A stretch of 40,804 nt of DNA from a virus (taxonomy: Duplodnaviria > Heunggongvirae > Uroviricota > Caudoviricetes): positions 1-40,804 of the IMG/VR virus record IMGVR_UViG_2687453522_000003; one strand, given 5' to 3'. Every line of letters begins with the position of its first letter. Positions within the stretch are counted from its first letter, which is position 1. Both the position numbers and the translations under genes were made by a program. The notes beneath the pieces were generated by a model. The model was not told the origin of the DNA. It was given only the letters and a program-made list of their open reading frames with translations, and did not search any database. This document shows positions 1,740 to 36,085 of the stretch, piece after piece.

Positions 1740-2954
1740 ATGTATATGTCGGTTTTTCATAACTGGCTGCTTGATATCGCAAGCGGGAATTACTTTATCT
1801 ACATCAAACGCCTTTCTGCAAACGACACAGGCGCAACAGGTGGCCATCAGGTCGGACTTTATATCCCCTCAAATATCGTTGAAAAGCTTTTTCCATCTAT
1901 CAATCATACTCGCGAACTGAACCCTTCAGTCTTCCTTACTGCGCATGTATCATCCCATGATTGCCCTGATACCCAAGCACGCGCAATTTATTACAACAAC
2001 CGTTATTTTGGTAAGACCCGAAACGAAAAAAGAATTACGCGCTGGGGGAGAGGAAGTCCATTACAGAACCCTGAAAATACAGGAGCCCTCACAATTCTTG
2101 CTTTCAGGTTAAACGAACAGAACACTGACTGTTCCGAGGTAGATATATGGGTCTGCGTCAATCCCGATGAAGAGGATCTCATCGAGTCTGCTATTGGCGA
2201 AATCATACCTGGAACCCTAATTTTCGGCCCAGCCGGACAAATTTTGGGCGGATTGTCTCTTCAGCAAACTCCAGTAAATCATAAATATGTTATTCCTGAA
2301 GACTGGAAGAAGCGTTTTCCTTCTGGAAACGAAATTATTCAATATGCTGCTGGCCATTATGCTAAAAACTCCAAGGATCCAGATGAGCAACTGATTGACC
2401 GTCGGCGTGTCGAGTATGATATTTTTCTACTCGTCGAGGAATTACATGTTCTTGATATTATTAAGAAAGGATTCGATTCTGTAGATGAGTTTATTGCATT
2501 AGCCAACTCTGTCAGTAATCGACGTAAATCAAGGGCAGGTAAATCACTTGAACTTCACCTAGAGAAGCTTTTTATCGAGCACGGACTACGGCATTTCTCC
2601 ACTCAGGCAGTTACTGAAGGTAATAAAAAACCAGATTTCCTGTTTCCTTCAGCAGAGGCATATCATAACGCTGAATTTCCTGTAGAAAACTTACGTATGC
2701 TGGCAGTAAAGACCACCTGCAAAGATCGCTGGCGTCAGATACTGAATGAAGCAGATAAAATCCATCAGGTACATTTATTTACACTGCAAGAAGGTGTTTC
2801 TTCAGCACAATACCGAGAAATGAAAGATGCGGGTGTCAGACTCGTTGTACCATCAACTTTACATAAAAAATACCCAGAAGCAGTTAGAGAAGAATTAATA
2901 ACGCTCGGAGCATTCATTACTGAGCTGATAGAACTTTACACTGAACTATCATAG
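1740..2954 (+). CDS. Type II restriction endonuclease, EcoRII-like (predicted CCWGG specificity)
   Basis: 404-aa ORF convergent with a Dcm/M.EcoRII-family methyltransferase; length and arrangement match the EcoRII system as I recall it; second ATG at 1746 has better spacing to the AAGGG ribosome-binding site. Confidence 0.7.
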   Translation: MYMSVFHNWLLDIASGNYFIYIKRLSANDTGATGGHQVGLYIPSNIVEKLFPSINHTRELNPSVFLTAHVSSHDCPDTQARAIYYNNRYFGKTRNEKRITRWGRGSPLQNPENTGALTILAFRLNEQNTDCSEVDIWVCVNPDEEDLIESAIGEIIPGTLIFGPAGQILGGLSLQQTPVNHKYVIPEDWKKRFPSGNEIIQYAAGHYAKNSKDPDEQLIDRRRVEYDIFLLVEELHVLDIIKKGFDSVDEFIALANSVSNRRKSRAGKSLELHLEKLFIEHGLRHFSTQAVTEGNKKPDFLFPSAEAYHNAEFPVENLRMLAVKTTCKDRWRQILNEADKIHQVHLFTLQEGVSSAQYREMKDAGVRLVVPSTLHKKYPEAVREELITLGAFITELIELYTELS

Positions 2955-2988
2955 GCTGACTCCCGGCTTAAAAGGCCGGGAGGTGTTC

Positions 2989-4422
2989 TCAAGGCTGCCC
3001 AGTCTTACCAGCATCAGCAGAAACAGCTTTGAGGATATAGGGTTCCAGAAGTCTGGCAACGGCTTCAAATACTGGCACCACAACGGAGTTACCGAACTGC
3101 CGATATGACTGAGTATCTGAAACCGGAATACGGAATGGTTTCCCTCCAGGTTTTTCAAACCCCATAAGGCGTGCGCACTCTCGGGGAGTCAGCCTGCGTG
3201 GTCGACGAGCCTGGTTACTCTCATTCATAAAGTCAGCCTCTCCCGTTGCCATATCCCAACCACGATCAATAAGAATTTCTGATCCGTCTTTGTGATATCT
3301 GGCAGAAAGTGTGCGTGCAATGCTTTCCTTATTCTCAGGATTGACCAACCCAAAGCCAAAACCATTCCCCTTGGCTGCATGCTTTTTGGCGTAGTTATAA
3401 AGGTACTCCCATAGTTTTGGCGTAAGTATATATTTACTGTCGACTACAGGCTCCAGCAATTCACCAAATGATGGGCGGTGTTCCGGATAAAAACGACTGA
3501 TATCACGCAAGGTAAACCCCTTGTGAATATTCAGATCTCGTCTAAATCCGACCAGAACAATGCGTTCACGATGCTGAGGCAAAAAATGCTTCCCATCGAT
3601 AATCTTTGGATCGTTTTTTCCCATTTCTGCAGCATCGGCAACTTCGTAGCCCAGCTCGTCAAGGGTCTCCATAATGACTTTGAAAGTTTTACCCTTATCA
3701 TGGCTCTTCAGATTTTTGACATTTTCCAGCACAAAAATTGCCGGTTTTTTTGCTCGTATAATACGTGCCACGTCAAAAAAAAGTGTTCCTTGTGCTTCAC
3801 ATTCAAAACCATGCGCACGACCAAGTGAGTTTTTCTTACTAACACCAGCAAGGCTAAATGGCTGGCACGGGAACCCCGCAAGAAGCACATCATGATCCGG
3901 CACATGCTCATCAATATATGCATAAGCATCCGTTTCCAATATATCGGTTTTATCACTCAGCGTGACTTCCCGAATATCGAGATTGAATTTATGCACCTGT
4001 TCATCGTTAAACCAGTTGGCCTTGTATGTACGCACAGCATCTTTATTCCATTCACTGGTAAAAACACACTGGCCTCCAATGGCCTCAAAACCTTTCCGTA
4101 TCCCTCCAATTCCAGCAAATAAGTCAATGAAGCGGAAAGCATATTCCGGATGGTTTGCAGGTGGTTCTGGTAGCATCTTACGCAGAAGAGACTCTTCTAC
4201 TGAAGTCAACGATTTTGGTAAACACTTGCCATTAATCCAGCGGTTAATGGTTTCACGGCTCCACTCATTTCTTCCGACTTTTCTCAGTAATTCAGCCACA
4301 TACTTCTGATCATAGATTTCCAGCACTTTCTCGATAAGCTTTTTATCATTTTCCTGTCGCAGCTTTTCTTCCGCCTCGGCTTCCTTCAGCAGATGCTGTG
4401 CCAACACTTCAAATTCAGACAT
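2989..4422 (-). CDS. DNA-cytosine C5 methyltransferase, Dcm/M.EcoRII family
   Basis: Motifs FAGIGG (motif I), FPCQPFS (catalytic Cys), ENVKNL, QFGNSV; near-colinear with E. coli Dcm from memory; start set at internal ATG (MSEFEV...) preceded by GGAGGA, giving 477 aa; the track ORF extends to 4464. Confidence 0.9.
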
Positions 4423-4729
4423 AATTCCTCCAAGGGGTCTAATGGGTGAAACTTTATCACTCATTTAACCCAGAAGGAAATGTTTTATCTGGATATTTAA
4501 ACAGTGACTGCAACGTAATCTAGCACTGGTGATGCTTTGTTAGGCATAGAGAATCATTCTATATACGACTAATGACAGAAAAACAGCAGACAAGTAGTTT
4601 GTTCATAAATTAACGCATACTACGTGCCTACGGTTTTCGAGACCGGTCCAATCATCAAACGAAACATAAAATTAGCTCACATTATGAGGAAAAGTATCTT
4701 TTTTGTACTATGTAAATTCAAAGGCTTAG

Positions 4730-5551
<822 letters not shown>

Positions 5552-5619
5552 GAAAAAAAGGAGCTATGTCCCCGGTCCGTTACTCACCTAATTTTTGAGT
5601 CTTTAAGTGATAAGCATAA

Positions 5620-5662
5620 ACCGCAGCACGATCTTCTTGCATACGACGTGCTACGGTTTCAT
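5620..5662. repeat. Hairpin repeat copy B, immediately 3' of the invertase gene (probable invertase terminator)
   Basis: AAACCGCAGCACGATCTTCTTGCATACGACGTGCTACGGTTTCA; direct repeat of 1455..1492. Confidence 0.7.
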
Positions 5663-6213
5663 TTATCTCCGACCGGAAACTTCTTATACAGTGTCGATAT
5701 ACCAACATCATAGATGATCGCCACCTTCTGGCAAGGAACGCCTGATGCAATTAATCGTCCGGCCTGCTCCCATTGTTCTGGTGTAAGTTTGGGGCGACGT
5801 CCACCAATTCGTCCCTGTGCGCGAGCTGCTTCCAGTCCAGCTTTTGTTCGTTCAACAATCAGTTCACGCTCCATTTCAGCCAGGGCACCCATCACATGAA
5901 AGAAAAAGCGCCCCATTGGGGTACTGGTATCAATTGAATCCGTCAGACTACGAAAGTTGATGCCTCGTTCACGCAACTCCTCCAGCAGCACGACAAGATG
6001 CCGCATACTGCGCCCCAGTCGGTCCAGTTTCCAGACCACCAGCGTGTCACCTGCCGATAATGTCCTGAGCAGCTTTTTCAGTCCTGGTCTGTCGGACTTT
6101 GTACCGCTTATCTTGTCTTCAAAAATCAGCTCGCATCCTGCACAGTTCAACGCATTACGTTGTAGATCGGTGTTCTGGTCATTTGTTGATACGCGAACAT
6201 AGCCAATAAGCAT
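5659..6213 (-). CDS. Serine DNA invertase (Pin/Gin/Hin/Cin family)
   Basis: MLIGYVRVSTNDQ... catalytic-serine N-terminus and C-terminal HTH; start set at the internal ATG preceded by AGGAGG, giving 184 aa; lies next to the tail-fibre segment. Confidence 0.9.
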   Translation of the reverse strand: MLIGYVRVSTNDQNTDLQRNALNCAGCELIFEDKISGTKSDRPGLKKLLRTLSAGDTLVVWKLDRLGRSMRHLVVLLEELRERGINFRSLTDSIDTSTPMGRFFFHVMGALAEMERELIVERTKAGLEAARAQGRIGGRRPKLTPEQWEQAGRLIASGVPCQKVAIIYDVGISTLYKKFPVGDK

Positions 6214-6242
6214 GATAGCTCCTCCTGACAAAAACAGGAACG

Positions 6243-6749
6243 ATGCCATTTGCGCGCTATTTCTGCATTTTCATAAACGTTGGTTTGGGCGAAACGATAA
6301 ATAAAGCCTCCGGAGCTATGCAGAAATCGGCTAATGGAGCTGATATTTCTGATGTATCAGCCTTCCGAAATGCGCTCCAGTTAGGGACCGCCGCAACACG
6401 AGATGTTGGAGCAGATAATGCCTCGAAGTTACTGGGTTTAGACAGCTTCAGGTCAATGATGTCAGGGAATGGCTACATCTACATTCCATGCATTGCGACG
6501 ACAGGAAACCCGGTGAAACTTATGTTGCAGTGGGGAACGGTGGCAACACAAAAGGGAGCTGATGCTGGATATGCCTTACCATTTGCTTTTCCCTATGCAG
6601 GCTTATTTGCGACCGGAAACCGTGGAACATCTGGCTACAATGCCGCGATGAATGTGCGTATTGCCAGCAGAACGCATATCAGTATTCAGAACTGGTCGCC
6701 ATCCGGAGAGGGCACCGAAGATTGTTGTTTTATCGCGCTGGGGTATTAA
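6243..6749 (+). CDS. Alternative tail-fibre C-terminal (receptor-binding) segment, currently in the silent orientation
   Basis: Contains the LQLGTAATRDVG tail-fibre motif; no independent start context; would fuse to the fibre constant region after inversion. Confidence 0.6.
   Translation: MPFARYFCIFINVGLGETINKASGAMQKSANGADISDVSAFRNALQLGTAATRDVGADNASKLLGLDSFRSMMSGNGYIYIPCIATTGNPVKLMLQWGTVATQKGADAGYALPFAFPYAGLFATGNRGTSGYNAAMNVRIASRTHISIQNWSPSGEGTEDCCFIALGY
6268..6293. other. Candidate invertase crossover site (gix/pix-like), left end of invertible segment
   Basis: TTTTCATAAACGTTGGTTTGGGCGAA has the AAACnnnnGGTTT palindromic core of Gin/Hin-type sites (compared by eye with gix from memory); about 55 bp from the invertase start. 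Confidence 0.45.
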
Positions 6750-6751
6750 GA

Positions 6752-7162
6752 ATGAATAAATTTTATAAAGGCTCTTTCTATCCGAAAGCACTAAAAGAGG
6801 TATATATCAGCGCCGGTTCATGGCCTGAAAATGGCGTTGATGTTGATGATGAAACAATGGCAATTTACACAGGCGTAGCGCCACAAGGCAAAACGCTGGG
6901 GGCTGATAAAAATGGTAATCCTGCGTGGATTGATATCCCGCCACTCTCCGCTGAACAACAGATTATTCAGGCTGAACAGAAAAGAACGGTATTGCGTTCT
7001 ATGGCTGATAAGGAAATAGCCTGGAGACAGGATGCTTTTGATGCGGAAATCGCGACGGCAGAAGAAACCGCCGCGTTATCTGAATGGAAAAAATACCGGG
7101 TCTTGCTGATGCGCGTTGATACAGCAAAACCCGTATGGCCTGTCAATCCGCAGGATATTTAA
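6752..7162 (+). CDS. Tail fibre assembly protein (partner of the silent fibre segment)
   Basis: MNKFYKGSFYP... N-terminus typical of Tfa chaperones; start 3 bp after the upstream stop. Confidence 0.65.
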   Translation: MNKFYKGSFYPKALKEVYISAGSWPENGVDVDDETMAIYTGVAPQGKTLGADKNGNPAWIDIPPLSAEQQIIQAEQKRTVLRSMADKEIAWRQDAFDAEIATAEETAALSEWKKYRVLLMRVDTAKPVWPVNPQDI

Positions 7163-25635: not shown

Positions 25636-26070
25636 TCATTTGAATACAAACTGTTCTGAAAGAATATTATGACAAATATATTTCGCCTGAATACTATTAT
25701 CTCTCATTCTAATATATTCTTTGTGGGCAACAGATAAAGAACGACAACCGCTGTTTACACGTGGGTATTTTTCCAACATATGTTCGCATATCAAAAAAGC
25801 ATTATTAATAGCATTTAATTTATGGCTTAACTCTCGTAGCTCGGCCCTTTTTTCAATACGAACATTACGACTAAGAGATAAAGGTAGCTGTGATAATGCA
25901 TTTGAATAATCAGCCACTGCCATTTTCAGAGCCATTTTGGCCTTCAGAGCCTCCTGTCGCCGCCAAACATTCATTGCCCAAAAACCTAATGTAACAGTTA
26001 CAATTGAACCTAAAGCCGATACAGCTGACCACACAGTTCCCCAAGGCCAGTTAAGTAATGTATGCCACAT
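25636..26070 (-). CDS. Membrane-anchored hypothetical protein (AT-rich moron)
   Basis: N-terminal hydrophobic helix then Lys/Glu-rich soluble part; GGAGG precedes the internal ATG; low GC relative to flanks. Confidence 0.6.
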   Translation of the reverse strand: MWHTLLNWPWGTVWSAVSALGSIVTVTLGFWAMNVWRRQEALKAKMALKMAVADYSNALSQLPLSLSRNVRIEKRAELRELSHKLNAINNAFLICEHMLEKYPRVNSGCRSLSVAHKEYIRMRDNSIQAKYICHNILSEQFVFK

Positions 26071-26438
26071 CATAACCTCCACTGAATGAAAAGGTTAGTT
26101 TATCGTAAGTGAACATCACTGGCACTATCTAAAGATTAGCTGCTCTACTAGTTGTACTCTCGATAATCTAAACAAAATGATACGTAATAAACCTGTTCAT
26201 GACTAGCTCTACTAGACACATGTTTAATCATCTACAAACGATTTGTACAAACTTCCACTTTCATATTGGTCCAAAAGGTTGGACTAATAGTTAATCACGA
26301 TGCATATTTTATGTAAGCTGCTACATTACACTATAAAAACGCTGGCGTCTGAATTTAAGCCCATAAGTTTTATAAAATTATCATAATACACAGCTTTATT
26401 AGGCGCATTCGCACTGATAATGAAAAATATAACTCGAG

Positions 26439-27451: not shown

Positions 27452-27778
27452 TTACTCCTTAGAACCACCAAACTTATTACCGATTACTCTCATTGCAGCC
27501 CCACGAATAGCATCGACACCGATCAACCCAACGCCACCACCAATGGCAACAGAAAGAGATTTAGGCCATCCGACATACTCAAGAGCGGATGCAAAAGTCA
27601 GCGTCAGAGCACCACAGAGCAAAATCTCGAGCGTTTTTCGTTTCCAGCCCCCACCACCGCCAAAATATGCAATGCGCAAGCCAGCCATAACAATCGACAT
27701 AATCACTGCGCCCAGCGGTGTGTCTCCACGCCACCAGCTCTGGACCAACTCCAACCAGGTATTTGGGTTATGAGGCAT
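27452..27778 (-). CDS. Holin, lambda S family
   Basis: Hydrophobic helices and basic C-terminus; AGLRIAYFGGGGGWKRK resembles lambda S (AMAYLRGRYNGGAFTK). Confidence 0.75.
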   Translation of the reverse strand: MPHNPNTWLELVQSWWRGDTPLGAVIMSIVMAGLRIAYFGGGGGWKRKTLEILLCGALTLTFASALEYVGWPKSLSVAIGGGVGLIGVDAIRGAAMRVIGNKFGGSKE

Positions 27779-27930: not shown

Positions 27931-27951
27931 AAACCCGCTCGACGCGGGTTT
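27931..27951 (-). terminator. Intrinsic terminator upstream of holin (candidate tR')
   Basis: Minus strand reads AAACCCGCGTCGAGCGGGTTTTGTCGTTTCT. Confidence 0.55.
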
Positions 27952-27996
27952 AAGCTGTGTGGCGAAGTAACCACTCTTAACACGATACAATACTTT

Positions 27997-28025
27997 TTGC
28001 GTACGCGTTAGCATTTGATTAGAAT
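27997..28025 (+). promoter_or_regulatory. Sigma70-like promoter for the two-gene cassette
   Basis: TTGCGT, 17-bp spacer, TAGAAT; ribosome-binding site AGGTGAAGG upstream of the ATG at 28058. Confidence 0.5.
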
Positions 28026-28057
28026 CCAATCATCAGAAAGCTAGGTGAAGGTTCAAA

Positions 28058-28879
28058 ATGAATTTTTCTTACACAAAACAGGATGGTCATACCAAACGCT
28101 GCCTTGTCAGAGCATTCAATGTTAATACAGCAACAACAGATATACTCTTCGACCAAATTTCAAATTCTGGTAAATTTATTGTTGACACTGTTTTTAAAAT
28201 AAACAATGAACAACATTTAATACTGAAAGAGTTTTCTACAAATAATAAAAGCCATTACTTACACTTTGCATTATATAATCCAAAAGAACAAGTATCGATC
28301 ACACCAAAAATAAAAACCGCAAGCGATCTTCTTGATGTTGAAAACCTTGACAATTTGCACGCTTTTTTATATGTAAAAGAAAATAAAATTGCATCTCTAA
28401 TGCAAATATCAACAAATTGGTGTGAGATTAAAATCGCTAAAATATTCGAGCAATTTGGTATAAAAATAACACCATCAGCAATTTTGCAAAAAAATGTCAT
28501 TCAACGAATTAAAGATGATAAACTTAGGGCTTTGCATCTTAATATTAGCGTTGATGCTTCTAATTTTGTGAAAACGCCCAGCTTTATAGACTCTATTTTT
28601 CAGAAAGAACCCAAACTTAAAGCTAGAGGTATTTCAGGACATTTAACTCTTGATGCAAAAGGAAATGCTGAACTAGCACAATCTATTGAAACCAACCCTA
28701 GTGGTTGGATAAATGATTTGGATTCTGATTTTTATATAGAAACAAAAAAAGGAGAGAAAATAACTAGTGACGACATTAAGTTAACAAAAGTTTATTATAC
28801 AGTCCCTTATGGTTCAAAATCTATTAATTCAAAATATGCGAAAGAAATTCTAGAGGACTTTGCTCAAAAAGAGCTATAA
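28058..28879 (+). CDS. Hypothetical soluble protein (273 aa), first gene of AT-rich cassette
   Basis: Clear ribosome-binding site; low GC; no family recognised. Confidence 0.75.
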   Translation: MNFSYTKQDGHTKRCLVRAFNVNTATTDILFDQISNSGKFIVDTVFKINNEQHLILKEFSTNNKSHYLHFALYNPKEQVSITPKIKTASDLLDVENLDNLHAFLYVKENKIASLMQISTNWCEIKIAKIFEQFGIKITPSAILQKNVIQRIKDDKLRALHLNISVDASNFVKTPSFIDSIFQKEPKLKARGISGHLTLDAKGNAELAQSIETNPSGWINDLDSDFYIETKKGEKITSDDIKLTKVYYTVPYGSKSINSKYAKEILEDFAQKEL

Positions 28880-28902
28880 TATACTAAAAAAAGGAGGCTA
28901 AC

Positions 28903-29388
28903 ATGTTAAAATCACTCAATTACTCAGGTATATTATTAACTTTGTTAAACATTTTAGCCTCAGTGTTATTTTCAATTTTCCTCACACATACTTTAACGAA
29001 CAATACTGACGCATTAAATTTGGTCGCCAATGTATTTTCTATCCTATCTGGTTTTCTTTTGTTGGTTATCACAATGTCTGGTGAAAACTCTACTCTGATG
29101 AACAACTTAAGCAAATTAGACGCTGCAAATCAAGAAATACGTTTCCTCATGCGTTTTAACAAATATTATGCTTTATTCTTGTTATATATTTTAACATTAG
29201 CTTTAATTTTTGTTTTTTATTTAATATCCAAGGATAAAGAAAACACATCTCAATACTTCATTCTGTTTAAGAAGTCAATTGGTTACATTATCTCTTTTTT
29301 AACTTGTTTTTCTTTTATACAATCAACATTCATCCCACTAAAAATAAAAGAATTATTTAAAGAGAAAAGACAACTTAATAAAAAATAG
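28903..29388 (+). CDS. Hypothetical integral membrane protein (161 aa, four predicted TM helices)
   Basis: AAGGAGG 8 bp upstream of the ATG; hydrophobic segments about 7-28, 41-59, 88-110, 125-145; Lys-rich C-terminus. Confidence 0.75.
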   Translation: MLKSLNYSGILLTLLNILASVLFSIFLTHTLTNNTDALNLVANVFSILSGFLLLVITMSGENSTLMNNLSKLDAANQEIRFLMRFNKYYALFLLYILTLALIFVFYLISKDKENTSQYFILFKKSIGYIISFLTCFSFIQSTFIPLKIKELFKEKRQLNKK

Positions 29389-29410
29389 GCCGCATAGCGG
29401 CCATTTTTTT
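29387..29410. terminator. Bidirectional intrinsic terminator between the cassette and Q
   Basis: AGGCCGC-ATA-GCGGCC flanked by A-tract and T-tract on both sides. Confidence 0.7.
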
Positions 29411-29772
29411 CATGTTAACAAAATACTTAAACAGCCATCGATGAATCCCATTGCAGTCTGTAATTCTTTTCGGATGGTCCCATCAGAACACTTCTGCTTC
29501 TTTGCGATAGTTCTTAATGAGATGCCGATAATAAAATGAGCAATAACCAACTCATACTCTTCGGGCTTATATTTACGCAATCGCGCAACACAGCTGTCAA
29601 TCATGATTCCTTCATCATCATCGCATTGTTGGCGTGTTTTCTTTCCATGAGGTAGTAAACCTTTAAACCCTGCAGCAACAGGCTGCCAGTCCACACCACT
29701 GTTATCTGCTGCAGCCCATGCTCCCCAGCGGTCCAAAACTTCATACATATCACGCATCAACTTTCTCCACAA
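29410..29772 (-). CDS. Late-gene antiterminator Q (phage 21/82-type)
   Basis: MRDMYEVLDRWGAWAA ... GFKGL ... CDDDEG pattern matches the Q family as I recall it; position after the nin region. Confidence 0.7.
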   Translation of the reverse strand: MWRKLMRDMYEVLDRWGAWAAADNSGVDWQPVAAGFKGLLPHGKKTRQQCDDDEGIMIDSCVARLRKYKPEEYELVIAHFIIGISLRTIAKKQKCSDGTIRKELQTAMGFIDGCLSILLT

Positions 29773-34976: not shown

Positions 34977-35603
34977 ATGGAAACGGTTGGTCAGCGTATA
35001 AAAGCTCTGAGAAGAGTTACCGGAACGTCCCAGAAAGAATTGGGTAAATTTTGTGGAGTAAGCGACGTTGCTGTGGGGTACTGGGAGAAAGACATCAATA
35101 CCCCTGGTGGGGAGGCACTTTCGAAATTAGCGAAGTTCTTCAATACGTCAATAGATTACATTCTTTATGGTGCTGAGTTTGAAGGCAAACTCGTCACAAA
35201 CATGCGCAGAGTTCCTGTAATATCGTGGGTTCAGGCTGGGCAGTTTACTGAGTGCAGGGCAGCAGAAGTGTTTAGTGAAGTGGACAAGTGGGTAGATACA
35301 TCATTAAAGATTGGTGATAACTCATTTGCATTAGAGGTTAAAGGTGACTCCATGACTAACCCTAATGGCCTCCCAACAATACCAGAAGGCGCAACAGTGA
35401 TTGTAGATCCAGATGCAGAACCTCGTCATGGAAAAATAGTCATCGCTCGACTTGATGGAACAAACGAAGCTACAGTAAAAAAATTAGTCATCGATGGCCC
35501 TCAAAAGTTTTTAGTGCCATTAAATCCTCGGTATCCCAACATCCCTATCAATGGTAATTGCCTTATCATTGGTGTAGTCAAAGGAGTTCAATACGAACTC
35601 TAA
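34977..35603 (+). CDS. cI: CI-type repressor (HTH plus S24 LexA-like peptidase domain)
   Basis: N-terminal HTH, Ala-Gly (QAGQ) cleavage site, GDSM serine and downstream KK. Confidence 0.85.
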   Translation: METVGQRIKALRRVTGTSQKELGKFCGVSDVAVGYWEKDINTPGGEALSKLAKFFNTSIDYILYGAEFEGKLVTNMRRVPVISWVQAGQFTECRAAEVFSEVDKWVDTSLKIGDNSFALEVKGDSMTNPNGLPTIPEGATVIVDPDAEPRHGKIVIARLDGTNEATVKKLVIDGPQKFLVPLNPRYPNIPINGNCLIIGVVKGVQYEL

Positions 35604-35620
35604 GACCTCTCTTCTCTAAC

Positions 35621-35682
35621 TAAGGCACCGAACTAAGAAAAGTTTGGTGTTTTCTCTTGCCATAATAACTAAGTTAAGTTAG
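35621..35682. promoter_or_regulatory. OL-type operator region downstream of cI
   Basis: CTAAGTTAAGTTAG (35669..35682) matches the OR sites; additional CTAAG repeats at 35621..35637. Confidence 0.45.
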
Positions 35683-35809
35683 ATTTTATATCAAAGATAA
35701 CGAACAGGCAGGACGCCCACGAAGTAGCCGCCTGGGGCATATGAAGTCCAGGATGATTCGTTGAGTCATGTTGTGCCACCAGGCACTCATGTTAAAGCAG
35801 GTGTATGAA

Positions 35810-36085
35810 ATGAAAGTCCAGATTTTAAACAATAACTGTGAAGTCGTTTGGTCATACGACATAGCCGCCCCTGTAGATCAGAGCGGCGATAGCTGGACCA
35901 ATGGGAAACATCAGATTATGGCTGGAGTTGTGTTCTCTTTACGCCGTGCTTTGGAACAGGCTGAAGTATTTCCATCAGACCCTGAATGGAAATGGCCTTT
36001 TTCTATTTGTCCAAATTCGGAGAGCACATTTCAGAAAATTGGTCAGAAAGTCGCACTCGAAGAGCATCAGCCAACTGTTTCCTGA
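35810..36085 (+). CDS. Hypothetical protein, first gene of the leftward-operon analogue
   Basis: AGGTG 6 nt upstream of the ATG at 35810; track ORF begins at 35768. Confidence 0.5.
   Translation: MKVQILNNNCEVVWSYDIAAPVDQSGDSWTNGKHQIMAGVVFSLRRALEQAEVFPSDPEWKWPFSICPNSESTFQKIGQKVALEEHQPTVS

What the first reader, a model, noticed from the sequence alone, without database searches (positions are those of the whole stretch)
27985..29410. Self-contained AT-rich two-gene operon (273-aa soluble protein plus 161-aa four-helix membrane protein) between Q and the holin: candidate undescribed defence or exclusion system
Seen in sequence: a roughly 1.4-kb block of much lower GC than the flanks, on the strand opposite to the late genes, with its own sigma70-like promoter (TTGCGT-17-TAGAAT), strong ribosome-binding sites on both genes, a 23-bp intergenic gap and a bidirectional terminator shared with Q. 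Gene 2 has four hydrophobic helices and a Lys-rich tail; gene 1 is soluble with no motif I recognise. Established knowledge: the Q-to-lysis junction is a classic moron hotspot, and a soluble sensor followed by a small four-helix membrane effector is the layout of lambda RexA/RexB (279 and 144 aa) and other abortive-infection modules. Inference: this is a RexAB-like or novel membrane-effector defence pair; I see no sequence-level proof of homology.
Basis: partly seen in the sequence, partly recalled or inferred. Interest (0 to 1): 0.85.

Follow-up and report, generated by a model that had tools for sequence, protein, structure and literature searches.

The report
Hidden RexAB-type phage-exclusion gene pair
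An E. coli prophage carries two unannotated genes, a soluble protein predicted to fold like phage lambda's RexA and a four-helix membrane protein, that are most likely a sequence-divergent version of the RexAB system, which stops other phages by damaging the host membrane.

The parts
28058..28879 (+). Gene 1: a 273-aa soluble protein with a predicted RexA/RdgC-type two-domain fold. It is the proposed cytoplasmic sensor or activator.
28903..29388 (+). Gene 2: a 161-aa inner-membrane protein with four TM helices, an inferred N-in/C-in topology and a Lys-rich amphipathic C-terminal helix. It is the proposed membrane effector (RexB analogue).
   Evidence: The AF2 model (pLDDT 81) has helices 7-33, 35-63, 71-110, 117-142 and 144-160. 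Hydropathy peaks and the K/R distribution resemble those of lambda RexB. The family alignment has an invariant TM2 motif, DALNLVANxFSILxGFLLLVIT, and a conserved central loop, QxxRFxxRFxKYY. There is no sequence link to RexB.
27997..28025 (+). Candidate promoter of the pair, TTGCGT-17-TAGAAT. It is divergent from the probable late promoter.
   Evidence: The sequence is read directly. It falls below the scan threshold. A -10-like hexamer sits at the same 17-nt spacing in the Klebsiella variant (TACAAT) and in the unrelated E. coli 042 cargo (TAAACT, read). Function is inferred, not shown.
27995..28011 (.). A 17-nt block, TTTTGCGTACGCGTTAG, linked to the Q type rather than to the cargo. It is probably part of the late promoter or Q-binding region and overlaps the pair's -35.
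   Evidence: The 15-nt core TTGCGTACGCGTTAG matches exactly in every locus carrying this Q type outside Lonsdalea, including those with two unrelated cargos. The Lonsdalea locus has 1 mismatch. The block is absent from the loci that lack Q.
27931..27992 (-). A conserved minus-strand segment downstream of the block. It has a -10-like TATTGT (27992-27987), the conserved GTTAAGAGTGGT(C/T)AC and a hairpin plus T tract (27951-27931). It is the probable start of the late transcript and its Q-sensitive terminator, ahead of the holin.
   Evidence: The alignment covers five loci with three different cargos. The terminator scan found the hairpin. The RNA fold gives -20.3 kcal/mol, z -2.0. No good -35 was found, so the promoter assignment is an inference.
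29388..29402 (.). Bidirectional intrinsic terminator shared by gene 2 and Q.
   Evidence: It has a 6-bp all-GC stem and a 3-nt loop, with T runs on both strands.
29410..29757 (-). Q antiterminator (PF06530). It is convergent with the pair and forms one boundary of the cargo slot.
   Evidence: Pfam E 1.9e-46. This Q type occurs in 682 of 5426 E. coli genomes. Identity to 95-97%-identical Q genes stops at query base 308-320 of 363, so the junction lies in the 3' end of Q.

Best explanation
This is a RexAB-type two-component phage-exclusion (abortive-infection) module carried as prophage cargo.

In the lysogen, the two genes are probably transcribed as one operon. The promoter would face away from the late promoter, and transcription would stop at the bidirectional terminator next to Q.

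Gene 1 encodes a cytoplasmic protein with the RexA/RdgC fold: a split globular domain interrupted by a four-strand, four-helix domain that in RexA mediates dimerisation. By analogy with lambda RexA and P. putida RexApp, it would form a DNA-binding dimer that senses a cue from an infecting phage.

Gene 1's product would then activate gene 2's product, a four-TM inner-membrane protein. That protein would oligomerise into a channel or pore, collapse the membrane potential and ATP supply, and arrest growth, so the incoming phage fails.

Shown here: the ORFs, their base composition, the predicted fold, the TM architecture, strict pairing across the family, prophage and lambda-rex-slot contexts, and absence from current defence models.

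Inferred: operon expression in the lysogen, dimerisation, DNA binding, sensing, activation of the membrane protein, membrane depolarisation, and the exclusion phenotype.
For: Fold:
- Foldseek against the PDB ranks lambda RexA 8twq_B first (E 4.5e-5, probability 1.00, 294 aligned columns). Iml3 and CENP-L come next.
- This is the RexA/RdgC/IML3/CHL4 group described in PMC11077077.
- The order of secondary-structure elements in the model matches RexA's split globular, dimerisation and C-terminal helix plan.

Partner:
- A homologous four-TM protein of 151-194 aa follows gene 1 homologues in 26 of 26 loci, about eight sequence variants down to 17-24% identity, with gaps of -25 to +37 nt.
- Helix positions and the K/R-rich central loop resemble those of RexB.

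Position:
- A 31-33%-identical pair sits directly after the CI repressor and before N, sieB, ral and cIII in an E. coli prophage, and a >99%-identical copy of that pair is present in 7 of 5426 complete E. coli genomes.
- The same arrangement occurs in the isolated phage Lambda_2G7b.

Autonomy:
- The pair also occurs outside prophages, as an AT-rich islet. In Aeromonas its GC is 0.315 against 0.658 in the flank.
- It therefore does not depend on Q or on the lysis genes.

Slot:
- The same Q-to-late-promoter gap holds other AT-rich, opposite-strand cargo in related prophages, as expected for an accessory or defence hotspot.
Against: No sequence similarity to RexA or RexB was detectable by any method tried:
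- Pfam PF15969 and PF15968 and the PADLOC RexA and RexB models miss both proteins while hitting lambda's.
- The A1 and A3 profiles against PDB sequences find nothing.
- hhalign of a 19-sequence gene 1 alignment against 28 canonical RexA sequences gives probability 0.2%.
- hhalign of the gene 2 family against RexB gives about 0.1%.

The gene 2 model has no significant structural match in BFVD (best E 0.069), and four-helix membrane bundles are generic.

RexA also shares its fold with RdgC, which is not a defence protein.

In the window the pair is not next to the repressor.

No expression or phenotype data exist. In one Rex-like system (Butters gp30/31) the roles of the two proteins are reversed.
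Confidence: 0.65

Rival explanations
1. A RexA-like regulator rather than a defence system. The soluble DNA-binding protein, tempered by its membrane partner, mainly tunes the prophage's own lysogeny-lysis decision or its late gene expression. Lambda RexA does this when it biases the CI-Cro switch. Any exclusion of other phages would be a side effect.
For: PMC11077077 shows that lambda RexA acts independently of RexB on the bistable switch, and its authors question whether exclusion is the true function. Family members sit next to cI in 2G7b-type phages. In the window the pair abuts the probable late promoter.
Against: The pair occurs outside any prophage in Aeromonas and in another bacterium, where there is no switch to tune. 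The strict co-inheritance of a membrane protein fits an effector better than a regulator. Four of the five described Rex-like systems need both proteins for defence.
Confidence: 0.12
2. A Butters-type or toxin-antitoxin-like arrangement with reversed roles. The soluble RexA-fold protein is the toxic or antiviral effector, and the membrane protein only sequesters it until infection.
For: Butters gp30/gp31 works this way according to PMC12894663. Nothing in the sequence tells which partner is the effector.
Against: The most conserved parts of the pair are TM2 and the central loop of the membrane protein, which suggests an active role. Lambda, Sbash, CarolAnn and P. putida all use the membrane protein as effector.
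Confidence: 0.1
3. A membrane-level superinfection-exclusion or other lysogenic-conversion function that does not involve abortive infection, for example blocking DNA entry. Gene 1 would be an accessory factor, and its RexA-like fold would reflect only a shared DNA-binding scaffold of the RdgC type.
Against: RdgC is not known to be paired with a membrane protein (established knowledge, not tested here). The positional replacement of rexAB between cI and N is hard to explain this way.
Confidence: 0.08
4. A lysis accessory module, such as an antiholin or lysis-timing factor, that works with the adjacent holin.
For: It is adjacent to the holin and encodes a small membrane protein.
Against: The pair is on the opposite strand to the late operon and so cannot be expressed with it. 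It travels with at least five different holin types (Phage_holin_8 plus Phage_holin_3_7, 3_1, 2_1 and 3_3). It also occurs beside cI and outside prophages.
Confidence: 0.03

Closest known systems
Phage lambda RexA/RexB (Pfam PF15969/PF15968; PDB 8TWQ)
   Different: No sequence similarity is detectable for either protein. In the window the pair lies between Q and the late promoter, on the strand opposite the late genes, and apparently has its own promoter; in lambda, by established knowledge, rexA and rexB are transcribed with cI from pRM. Gene 2 has a longer TM2-TM3 loop (31 residues against about 18) and an extra Lys-rich C-terminal helix.
Pseudomonas putida prophage P1 RexABpp (PP_5643/PP_5644; PMC12894663)
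   Different: RexApp was still linked to RexA by HHpred (98% probability). The profile tests available here found no link for this family. RexABpp lies downstream of a CI-like repressor. No direct comparison was possible because its sequence is not in the collections.
Actinobacteriophage Rex-like pairs: Sbash gp30/31, CarolAnn gp44/43, Butters gp30/31
   Same: Each is a soluble protein plus a four-TM protein expressed from a prophage and excluding unrelated phages. In Sbash gp31 the central cytoplasmic loop is essential (R70A, D73A). In gene 2's family the same loop carries conserved residues: Q77, F81, R84, F85, Y88 and Y89 are invariant, and R80 and K87 are nearly so.
   Different: The host phylum is different and no sequence relationship was tested or seen. 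A 165-aa Sbash protein appeared only at rank 38 (E 1.4, TM 0.58) in the BFVD search, and its identity as gp31 was not verified. In Butters the roles are reversed.
RdgC recombination-associated protein (PDB 2OWL)
   Different: RdgC is a housekeeping DNA-binding ring with no membrane partner and no prophage context. Gene 1's family gives no Pfam hit of any kind.

Membership tests
RexAB-type exclusion systems (as used in PMC11077077 and PMC12894663) | The soluble component has the RexA two-domain fold: a split globular domain plus a four-strand, four-helix dimerisation domain. | tested here: met
RexAB-type exclusion systems (as used in PMC11077077 and PMC12894663) | A four-TM membrane protein is encoded immediately downstream and co-inherited. 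| tested here: met
   Four TM helices are predicted. A homologous partner is present in 26 of 26 loci, with gaps of -25 to +37 nt.
RexAB-type exclusion systems (as used in PMC11077077 and PMC12894663) | Carried by a temperate phage or prophage and placed near the immunity repressor. | tested here: inconclusive
   Prophage carriage is met. In the window the pair lies between Q and the holin, not near the repressor. Family members at 31-33% identity lie directly after cI.
RexAB-type exclusion systems (as used in PMC11077077 and PMC12894663) | Both genes are needed to exclude a heterologous phage, and the membrane protein causes depolarisation or growth arrest when activated. | not testable with these tools
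   This needs plaque, centre-of-infection and membrane-potential assays.
RexAB-type exclusion systems (as used in PMC11077077 and PMC12894663) | The RexA-like protein dimerises and binds DNA non-specifically. | not testable with these tools
   This needs SEC-MALS and EMSA. Only hints exist: invariant K230 and K231 in the last hairpin of the middle domain, and a near-invariant G134 with an invariant P139 at the predicted hinge.
Pfam RexA (PF15969) / PADLOC RexA | A significant match to the family model. | tested here: not met
   There is no hit at E<=1 for gene 1 and none at E<=10 for 19 diverse family members. Lambda RexA as a positive control scores 1.4e-96 and 1.3e-108. hhalign of A3 against 28 RexA sequences gives probability 0.2%.
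Pfam RexB (PF15968) / PADLOC RexB | A significant match to the family model. | tested here: not met
   There is no hit for gene 2. Lambda RexB as a control scores 8.2e-92 and 8.6e-61. The A2 HMM against four RexB sequences gives E 0.14-4.6. hhalign gives probability about 0.1%.
RdgC family | RdgC fold, RdgC sequence signature and a stand-alone housekeeping context. | tested here: not met
Other catalogued defence systems (PADLOC-DB 2.0.0, including Kiwa, CBASS/Pycsar 4TM effectors and SLATT) | A significant match to any model. | tested here: not met
   The best PADLOC E-values are 0.0064-0.092, all short and partial. NCBIfam SLATT_4 gives E 0.078, far below its cutoff.

The most novel reading that the evidence does not exclude
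The gap between Q and the late promoter may be a dedicated cargo slot with built-in self-immunity.

The -35 of the cargo promoter (TTGCGT) is embedded in the 17-nt element that follows the Q type. If that element is the Q-binding or late-promoter core, Q loading at late times would switch off the Rex-like abortive-infection pair just when the prophage itself goes lytic. Antiterminated transcription running antisense through the pair from the Q side would add to this.

In parallel, this pair would define a third lineage of Rex systems with no detectable sequence similarity to the others. Its membrane effector would be unrelated in sequence to RexB and could use a different pore architecture.
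Probability: 0.15. Interest if true: 0.7.

Novelty: new member of a known kind. Interest (0 to 1): 0.55.

Why it matters
RexAB is the oldest known abortive-infection system, yet how it is triggered remains unresolved. A 2026 paper counts only five Rex-like systems described.

This would be a sixth family, found in E. coli and its relatives. It has no detectable sequence similarity to lambda RexAB, yet it sits in the same cI-N slot in a lambda-like phage. That gives a natural comparison in a tractable host for finding what is essential to Rex function: the fold, the hinge, the central loop of the membrane protein.

It also shows that current defence finders (PADLOC and Pfam-based) miss Rex-type systems that only structure and context reveal. 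Finally, it points to the Q-to-late-promoter gap of this Q type, present in about 12% of complete E. coli genomes, as a place to look for more cargo of this kind.

Tried and rejected
Searches that found nothing:
1. Sequence-family searches of both proteins in Pfam, NCBIfam and PADLOC gave nothing significant. Gene 1 matched only phrog_23561, of unknown function.
2. The faint SLATT_4 (E 0.078) and 8xMP/DUF hits for gene 2 were rejected as far below their cutoffs.
3. Profile searches against PDB sequences with A1 and A3 did not find RexA.
4. Profile-profile comparison of the gene 1 family against lambda RexA alone, against 5 RexA sequences and against 28 RexA sequences gave probability 0.2-0.3%.
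5. The same comparison for gene 2 against RexB gave about 0.1-0.25%.
6. Scanning 19 diverse family members for a bridging Pfam RexA or RdgC hit found none.
7. Foldseek of the gene 2 model against BFVD gave no significant hit. The Sbash 165-aa protein at rank 38 could not be verified as gp31, because the accession I recalled turned out to be phage Cosmo.
The viral-contig scans returned only 10 canonical RexA loci.
9. A megablast of the block against phage records gave no match.
10. Rfam found only the tRNA-Thr in the window.

Ideas rejected:
11. The lysis-accessory idea was rejected because of strand, the variety of holin partners and the non-phage contexts.
12. The idea that TTGCGTACGCGTTAG is an operator of the pair itself was rejected. 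It is present with unrelated cargo and absent from copies of the pair that lack Q.

Left open:
13. I could not find a convincing -35 for the putative late promoter, so that assignment stays an inference.

Full report
**1. What is there**

The window is an E. coli prophage, identical to one in strain CRE1493. It is integrated beside tRNA-Thr and proA, and its late genes are on the minus strand.

Between Q (PF06530, 29410..29757) and a lambda-family holin (27452..27778) lies an AT-rich block. Its GC is 0.27-0.32, against 0.45-0.55 in the flanks.

The block holds two plus-strand ORFs separated by 23 bp: 28058..28879 (273 aa) and 28903..29388 (161 aa). Gene 2 is preceded by AAGGAGG and gene 1 by GGTGAAGG. 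A 6-bp all-GC hairpin at 29388-29402, with T runs on both strands, separates gene 2 from the Q stop codon and scores as a terminator in both directions.

It matches only 3/6 + 5/6 of the consensus and fails the scan. The scan found no more promoter-like sites here than in shuffled sequence.

**2. The ORFs are genes and form a fixed pair**

Gene 1 has 68 clusters of homologues in the 5.8-billion-protein set and gene 2 has 138. All come from Enterobacterales or Aeromonas, all are called hypothetical, and nearly all are 273 aa or 160-161 aa long. The aligned sequences are 48-89% and 56-89% identical to the window proteins.

The family is small. An exhaustive profile search of 1.84 billion representatives found only 23.

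I fetched 26 loci that carry a gene 1 homologue, representing about eight sequence variants down to 17-24% identity. In every one, a gene 2 homologue follows on the same strand, with a gap of -25 to +37 nt.

The window's exact pair is rare. It occurs in 5 of 5426 complete E. coli genomes and in no phage record by megablast.

**3. What gene 1 is**

Pfam, NCBIfam and PADLOC give nothing. PHROGs gives phrog_23561, of unknown function.

An AlphaFold2 model built on 41 sequences has pLDDT 80.7 and pTM 0.74. Two structure searches gave the same answer:
- Foldseek against the PDB produced one hit below E 1e-3: lambda RexA 8twq_B (E 4.5e-5, probability 1.00, 294 columns). Iml3 and CENP-L followed.

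The model's element order also fits the published RexA topology. It has a strand-rich N-terminal half with two helices (1-132), a middle domain of four strands and four to five helices (145-240), and then a strand and a long C-terminal helix.

**4. Sequence tests are negative**

Lambda RexA and RexB hit their Pfam and PADLOC models strongly. The window proteins do not. Nor do 19 diverse gene 1 relatives at E<=10, nor the pair that sits next to cI.

Profiles of the gene 1 family do not find RexA among PDB sequences.

hhalign of the family against 28 canonical RexA sequences gives probability 0.2%. For gene 2 against RexB the figure is about 0.1%.

So the family is not a member of Pfam RexA or RexB. 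The relationship is at the level of fold, architecture and position.

**5. What gene 2 is**

The AF2 model (pLDDT 81) has four long helices and a fifth, Lys-rich C-terminal helix.

Hydropathy peaks fall at 9-27, 40-58, 90-108 and 126-144. In lambda RexB they fall at 8-26, about 45-66, 84-102 and 116-134. In both proteins the TM2-TM3 loop is rich in K/R, which suggests an N-in/C-in topology.

The invariant residues cluster in two places: TM2 (DALNLVANxFSILxGFLLLVIT), and the central loop just before TM3 (QxxRFxxRFxKYY). In Sbash gp31 the equivalent loop is essential for defence.

The BFVD search gave no significant match. The RexB analogy therefore rests on architecture and pairing. This is the same basis on which the P. 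putida authors named RexBpp.

**6. Context**

Across Escherichia, Enterobacter, Klebsiella, Yersinia and Lonsdalea, the pair lies on the strand opposite the late genes. It sits between a PF06530 Q and the lysis genes, and those lysis genes include at least five different holin types.

It also occurs outside prophages:
- In Aeromonas it lies between an ABC-transporter/AttH cluster and lactate-utilisation genes. Its GC is 0.315, against 0.658 in the flank.
- In another bacterium it lies between metH-type genes and an AAA_14 ATPase gene.

The most informative context is a 31-33%-identical pair that sits directly after the CI repressor and before N, sieB, ral, cIII, kil and gam. This arrangement occurs in an E. 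coli prophage, and a >99%-identical copy of that pair is present in 7 of 5426 complete genomes. It also occurs in the isolated phage Lambda_2G7b, where the 163-aa partner ORF is intact but unannotated. That is the lambda cI-rexA-rexB-pL-N layout.

**7. The slot and the promoter**

This Q type occurs in 682 of 5426 E. coli genomes. In related prophages the same gap holds other AT-rich, opposite-strand cargo:
- E. coli 042 has a 308-aa soluble protein plus a 182-aa membrane protein with a K/R-rich tail.
- Strain 164 has a TIGR04255-family protein plus two hypothetical proteins.

Five loci with three different cargos share a module of about 95 nt that reads towards the holin. Its parts, in order, are CTAACGCGTACGCAAAA, then TATNGT, then GTTAAGAGTGGT(C/T)AC, then a hairpin with a T tract.

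The core TTGCGTACGCGTTAG is exact in all of these Q-linked loci. It has one mismatch in Lonsdalea, where Q is 76% identical, and it is absent from copies of the pair that lack Q.

I read this module as the late promoter, Q-utilisation site and terminator of this Q type. That is an inference, because I found no good -35.

In the window, the Klebsiella variant and the 042 cargo, a -10-like hexamer sits 17 nt from it on the cargo side. The cargo promoter is therefore plausibly a divergent partner of the late promoter rather than a part of the cassette.

**8. Mechanism and confidence**

The best-supported reading is a RexAB-type exclusion module. A RexA-fold cytoplasmic sensor or activator would gate a four-TM membrane effector that collapses membrane energetics and aborts infection by another phage.

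My confidence is about 0.85 for the fold and pairing claims and about 0.65 for the functional claim.

The rivals are a switch-tuning role like that of lambda RexA, a Butters-type reversal of roles, non-abortive exclusion, and a lysis accessory. The evidence for and against each is set out under rival explanations.

**9. Novelty**

A 2026 paper counts five described Rex-like systems. The searches made here found no description of this family. The defence and family models tested do not detect it.

It is a new, sequence-orphan member of a known kind. It is not a new kind of system.

Noticed in passing
window 27931-28011 (minus strand); L038 4890-4990; L039 5281-5385: A conserved module of about 95 nt (CTAACGCGTACGCAAAA, TATNGT, GTTAAGAGTGGT(C/T)AC, then a hairpin with a T tract) follows this Q type whatever lies between Q and the holin. 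It is probably the late promoter, Q-utilisation site and terminator, though no good -35 was found. Its core overlaps the -35 proposed for the Rex-like pair.
   Followed up: partly
L038 3370-4831 (E. coli 042, same slot downstream of a 96%-identical Q): Alternative cargo in the same slot. It is an AT-rich (GC 0.31), opposite-strand pair: a 308-aa soluble protein and an overlapping 182-aa protein with three or four hydrophobic segments and a K/R-rich tail. Neither has a Pfam or PADLOC hit. It could be another soluble-sensor plus membrane-effector system.
   Followed up: partly
L039 3386-5113 (E. coli strain 164, same slot): A third cargo type in the same slot: a TIGR04255-family protein (249 aa) plus hypothetical proteins of 114 and 204 aa. 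It is on the opposite strand, has GC 0.33 and gives no Pfam or PADLOC hit.
   Followed up: partly
window 25636-26073 (minus strand): A second AT-rich stretch (GC 0.32-0.40) lies between the lysis cassette and the HNH/terminase genes. It encodes a 145-aa hypothetical protein with an N-terminal hydrophobic helix and no Pfam hit. It may be another moron.
   Followed up: partly
window 1745-5598: Near the tail-fibre end of the window there is a type II restriction endonuclease, a DNA cytosine methyltransferase and a GIY-YIG (LEM-3-like) protein, as annotated in RefSeq. The window therefore carries at least one further defence-type cargo region.
   Followed up: no
window 5659-7162: A pinE-type invertase sits next to tail-fibre and tail-fibre-assembly genes. 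This suggests an invertible host-range segment.
   Followed up: no
L041 4390-4881 (phage Lambda_2G7b, NC_049954 about 35481-35972): The 163-aa four-TM partner gene is intact but not annotated in the RefSeq phage record. A 43-aa ORF on the other strand is annotated there instead.
   Followed up: yes
window 29410-29772 compared with other E. coli genomes: Q genes 95-97% identical to this one match only up to query base 308-320 of 363. The recombination junction of the cargo slot therefore lies inside the 3' end of Q, not after its stop codon.
   Followed up: partly
L013 6001-7334 (Aeromonas): The pair keeps a GC of about 0.31 inside a 0.66-GC chromosome, and is about 0.28-0.35 GC in all hosts sampled. 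This points to recent horizontal spread or a constraint on composition.
   Followed up: partly
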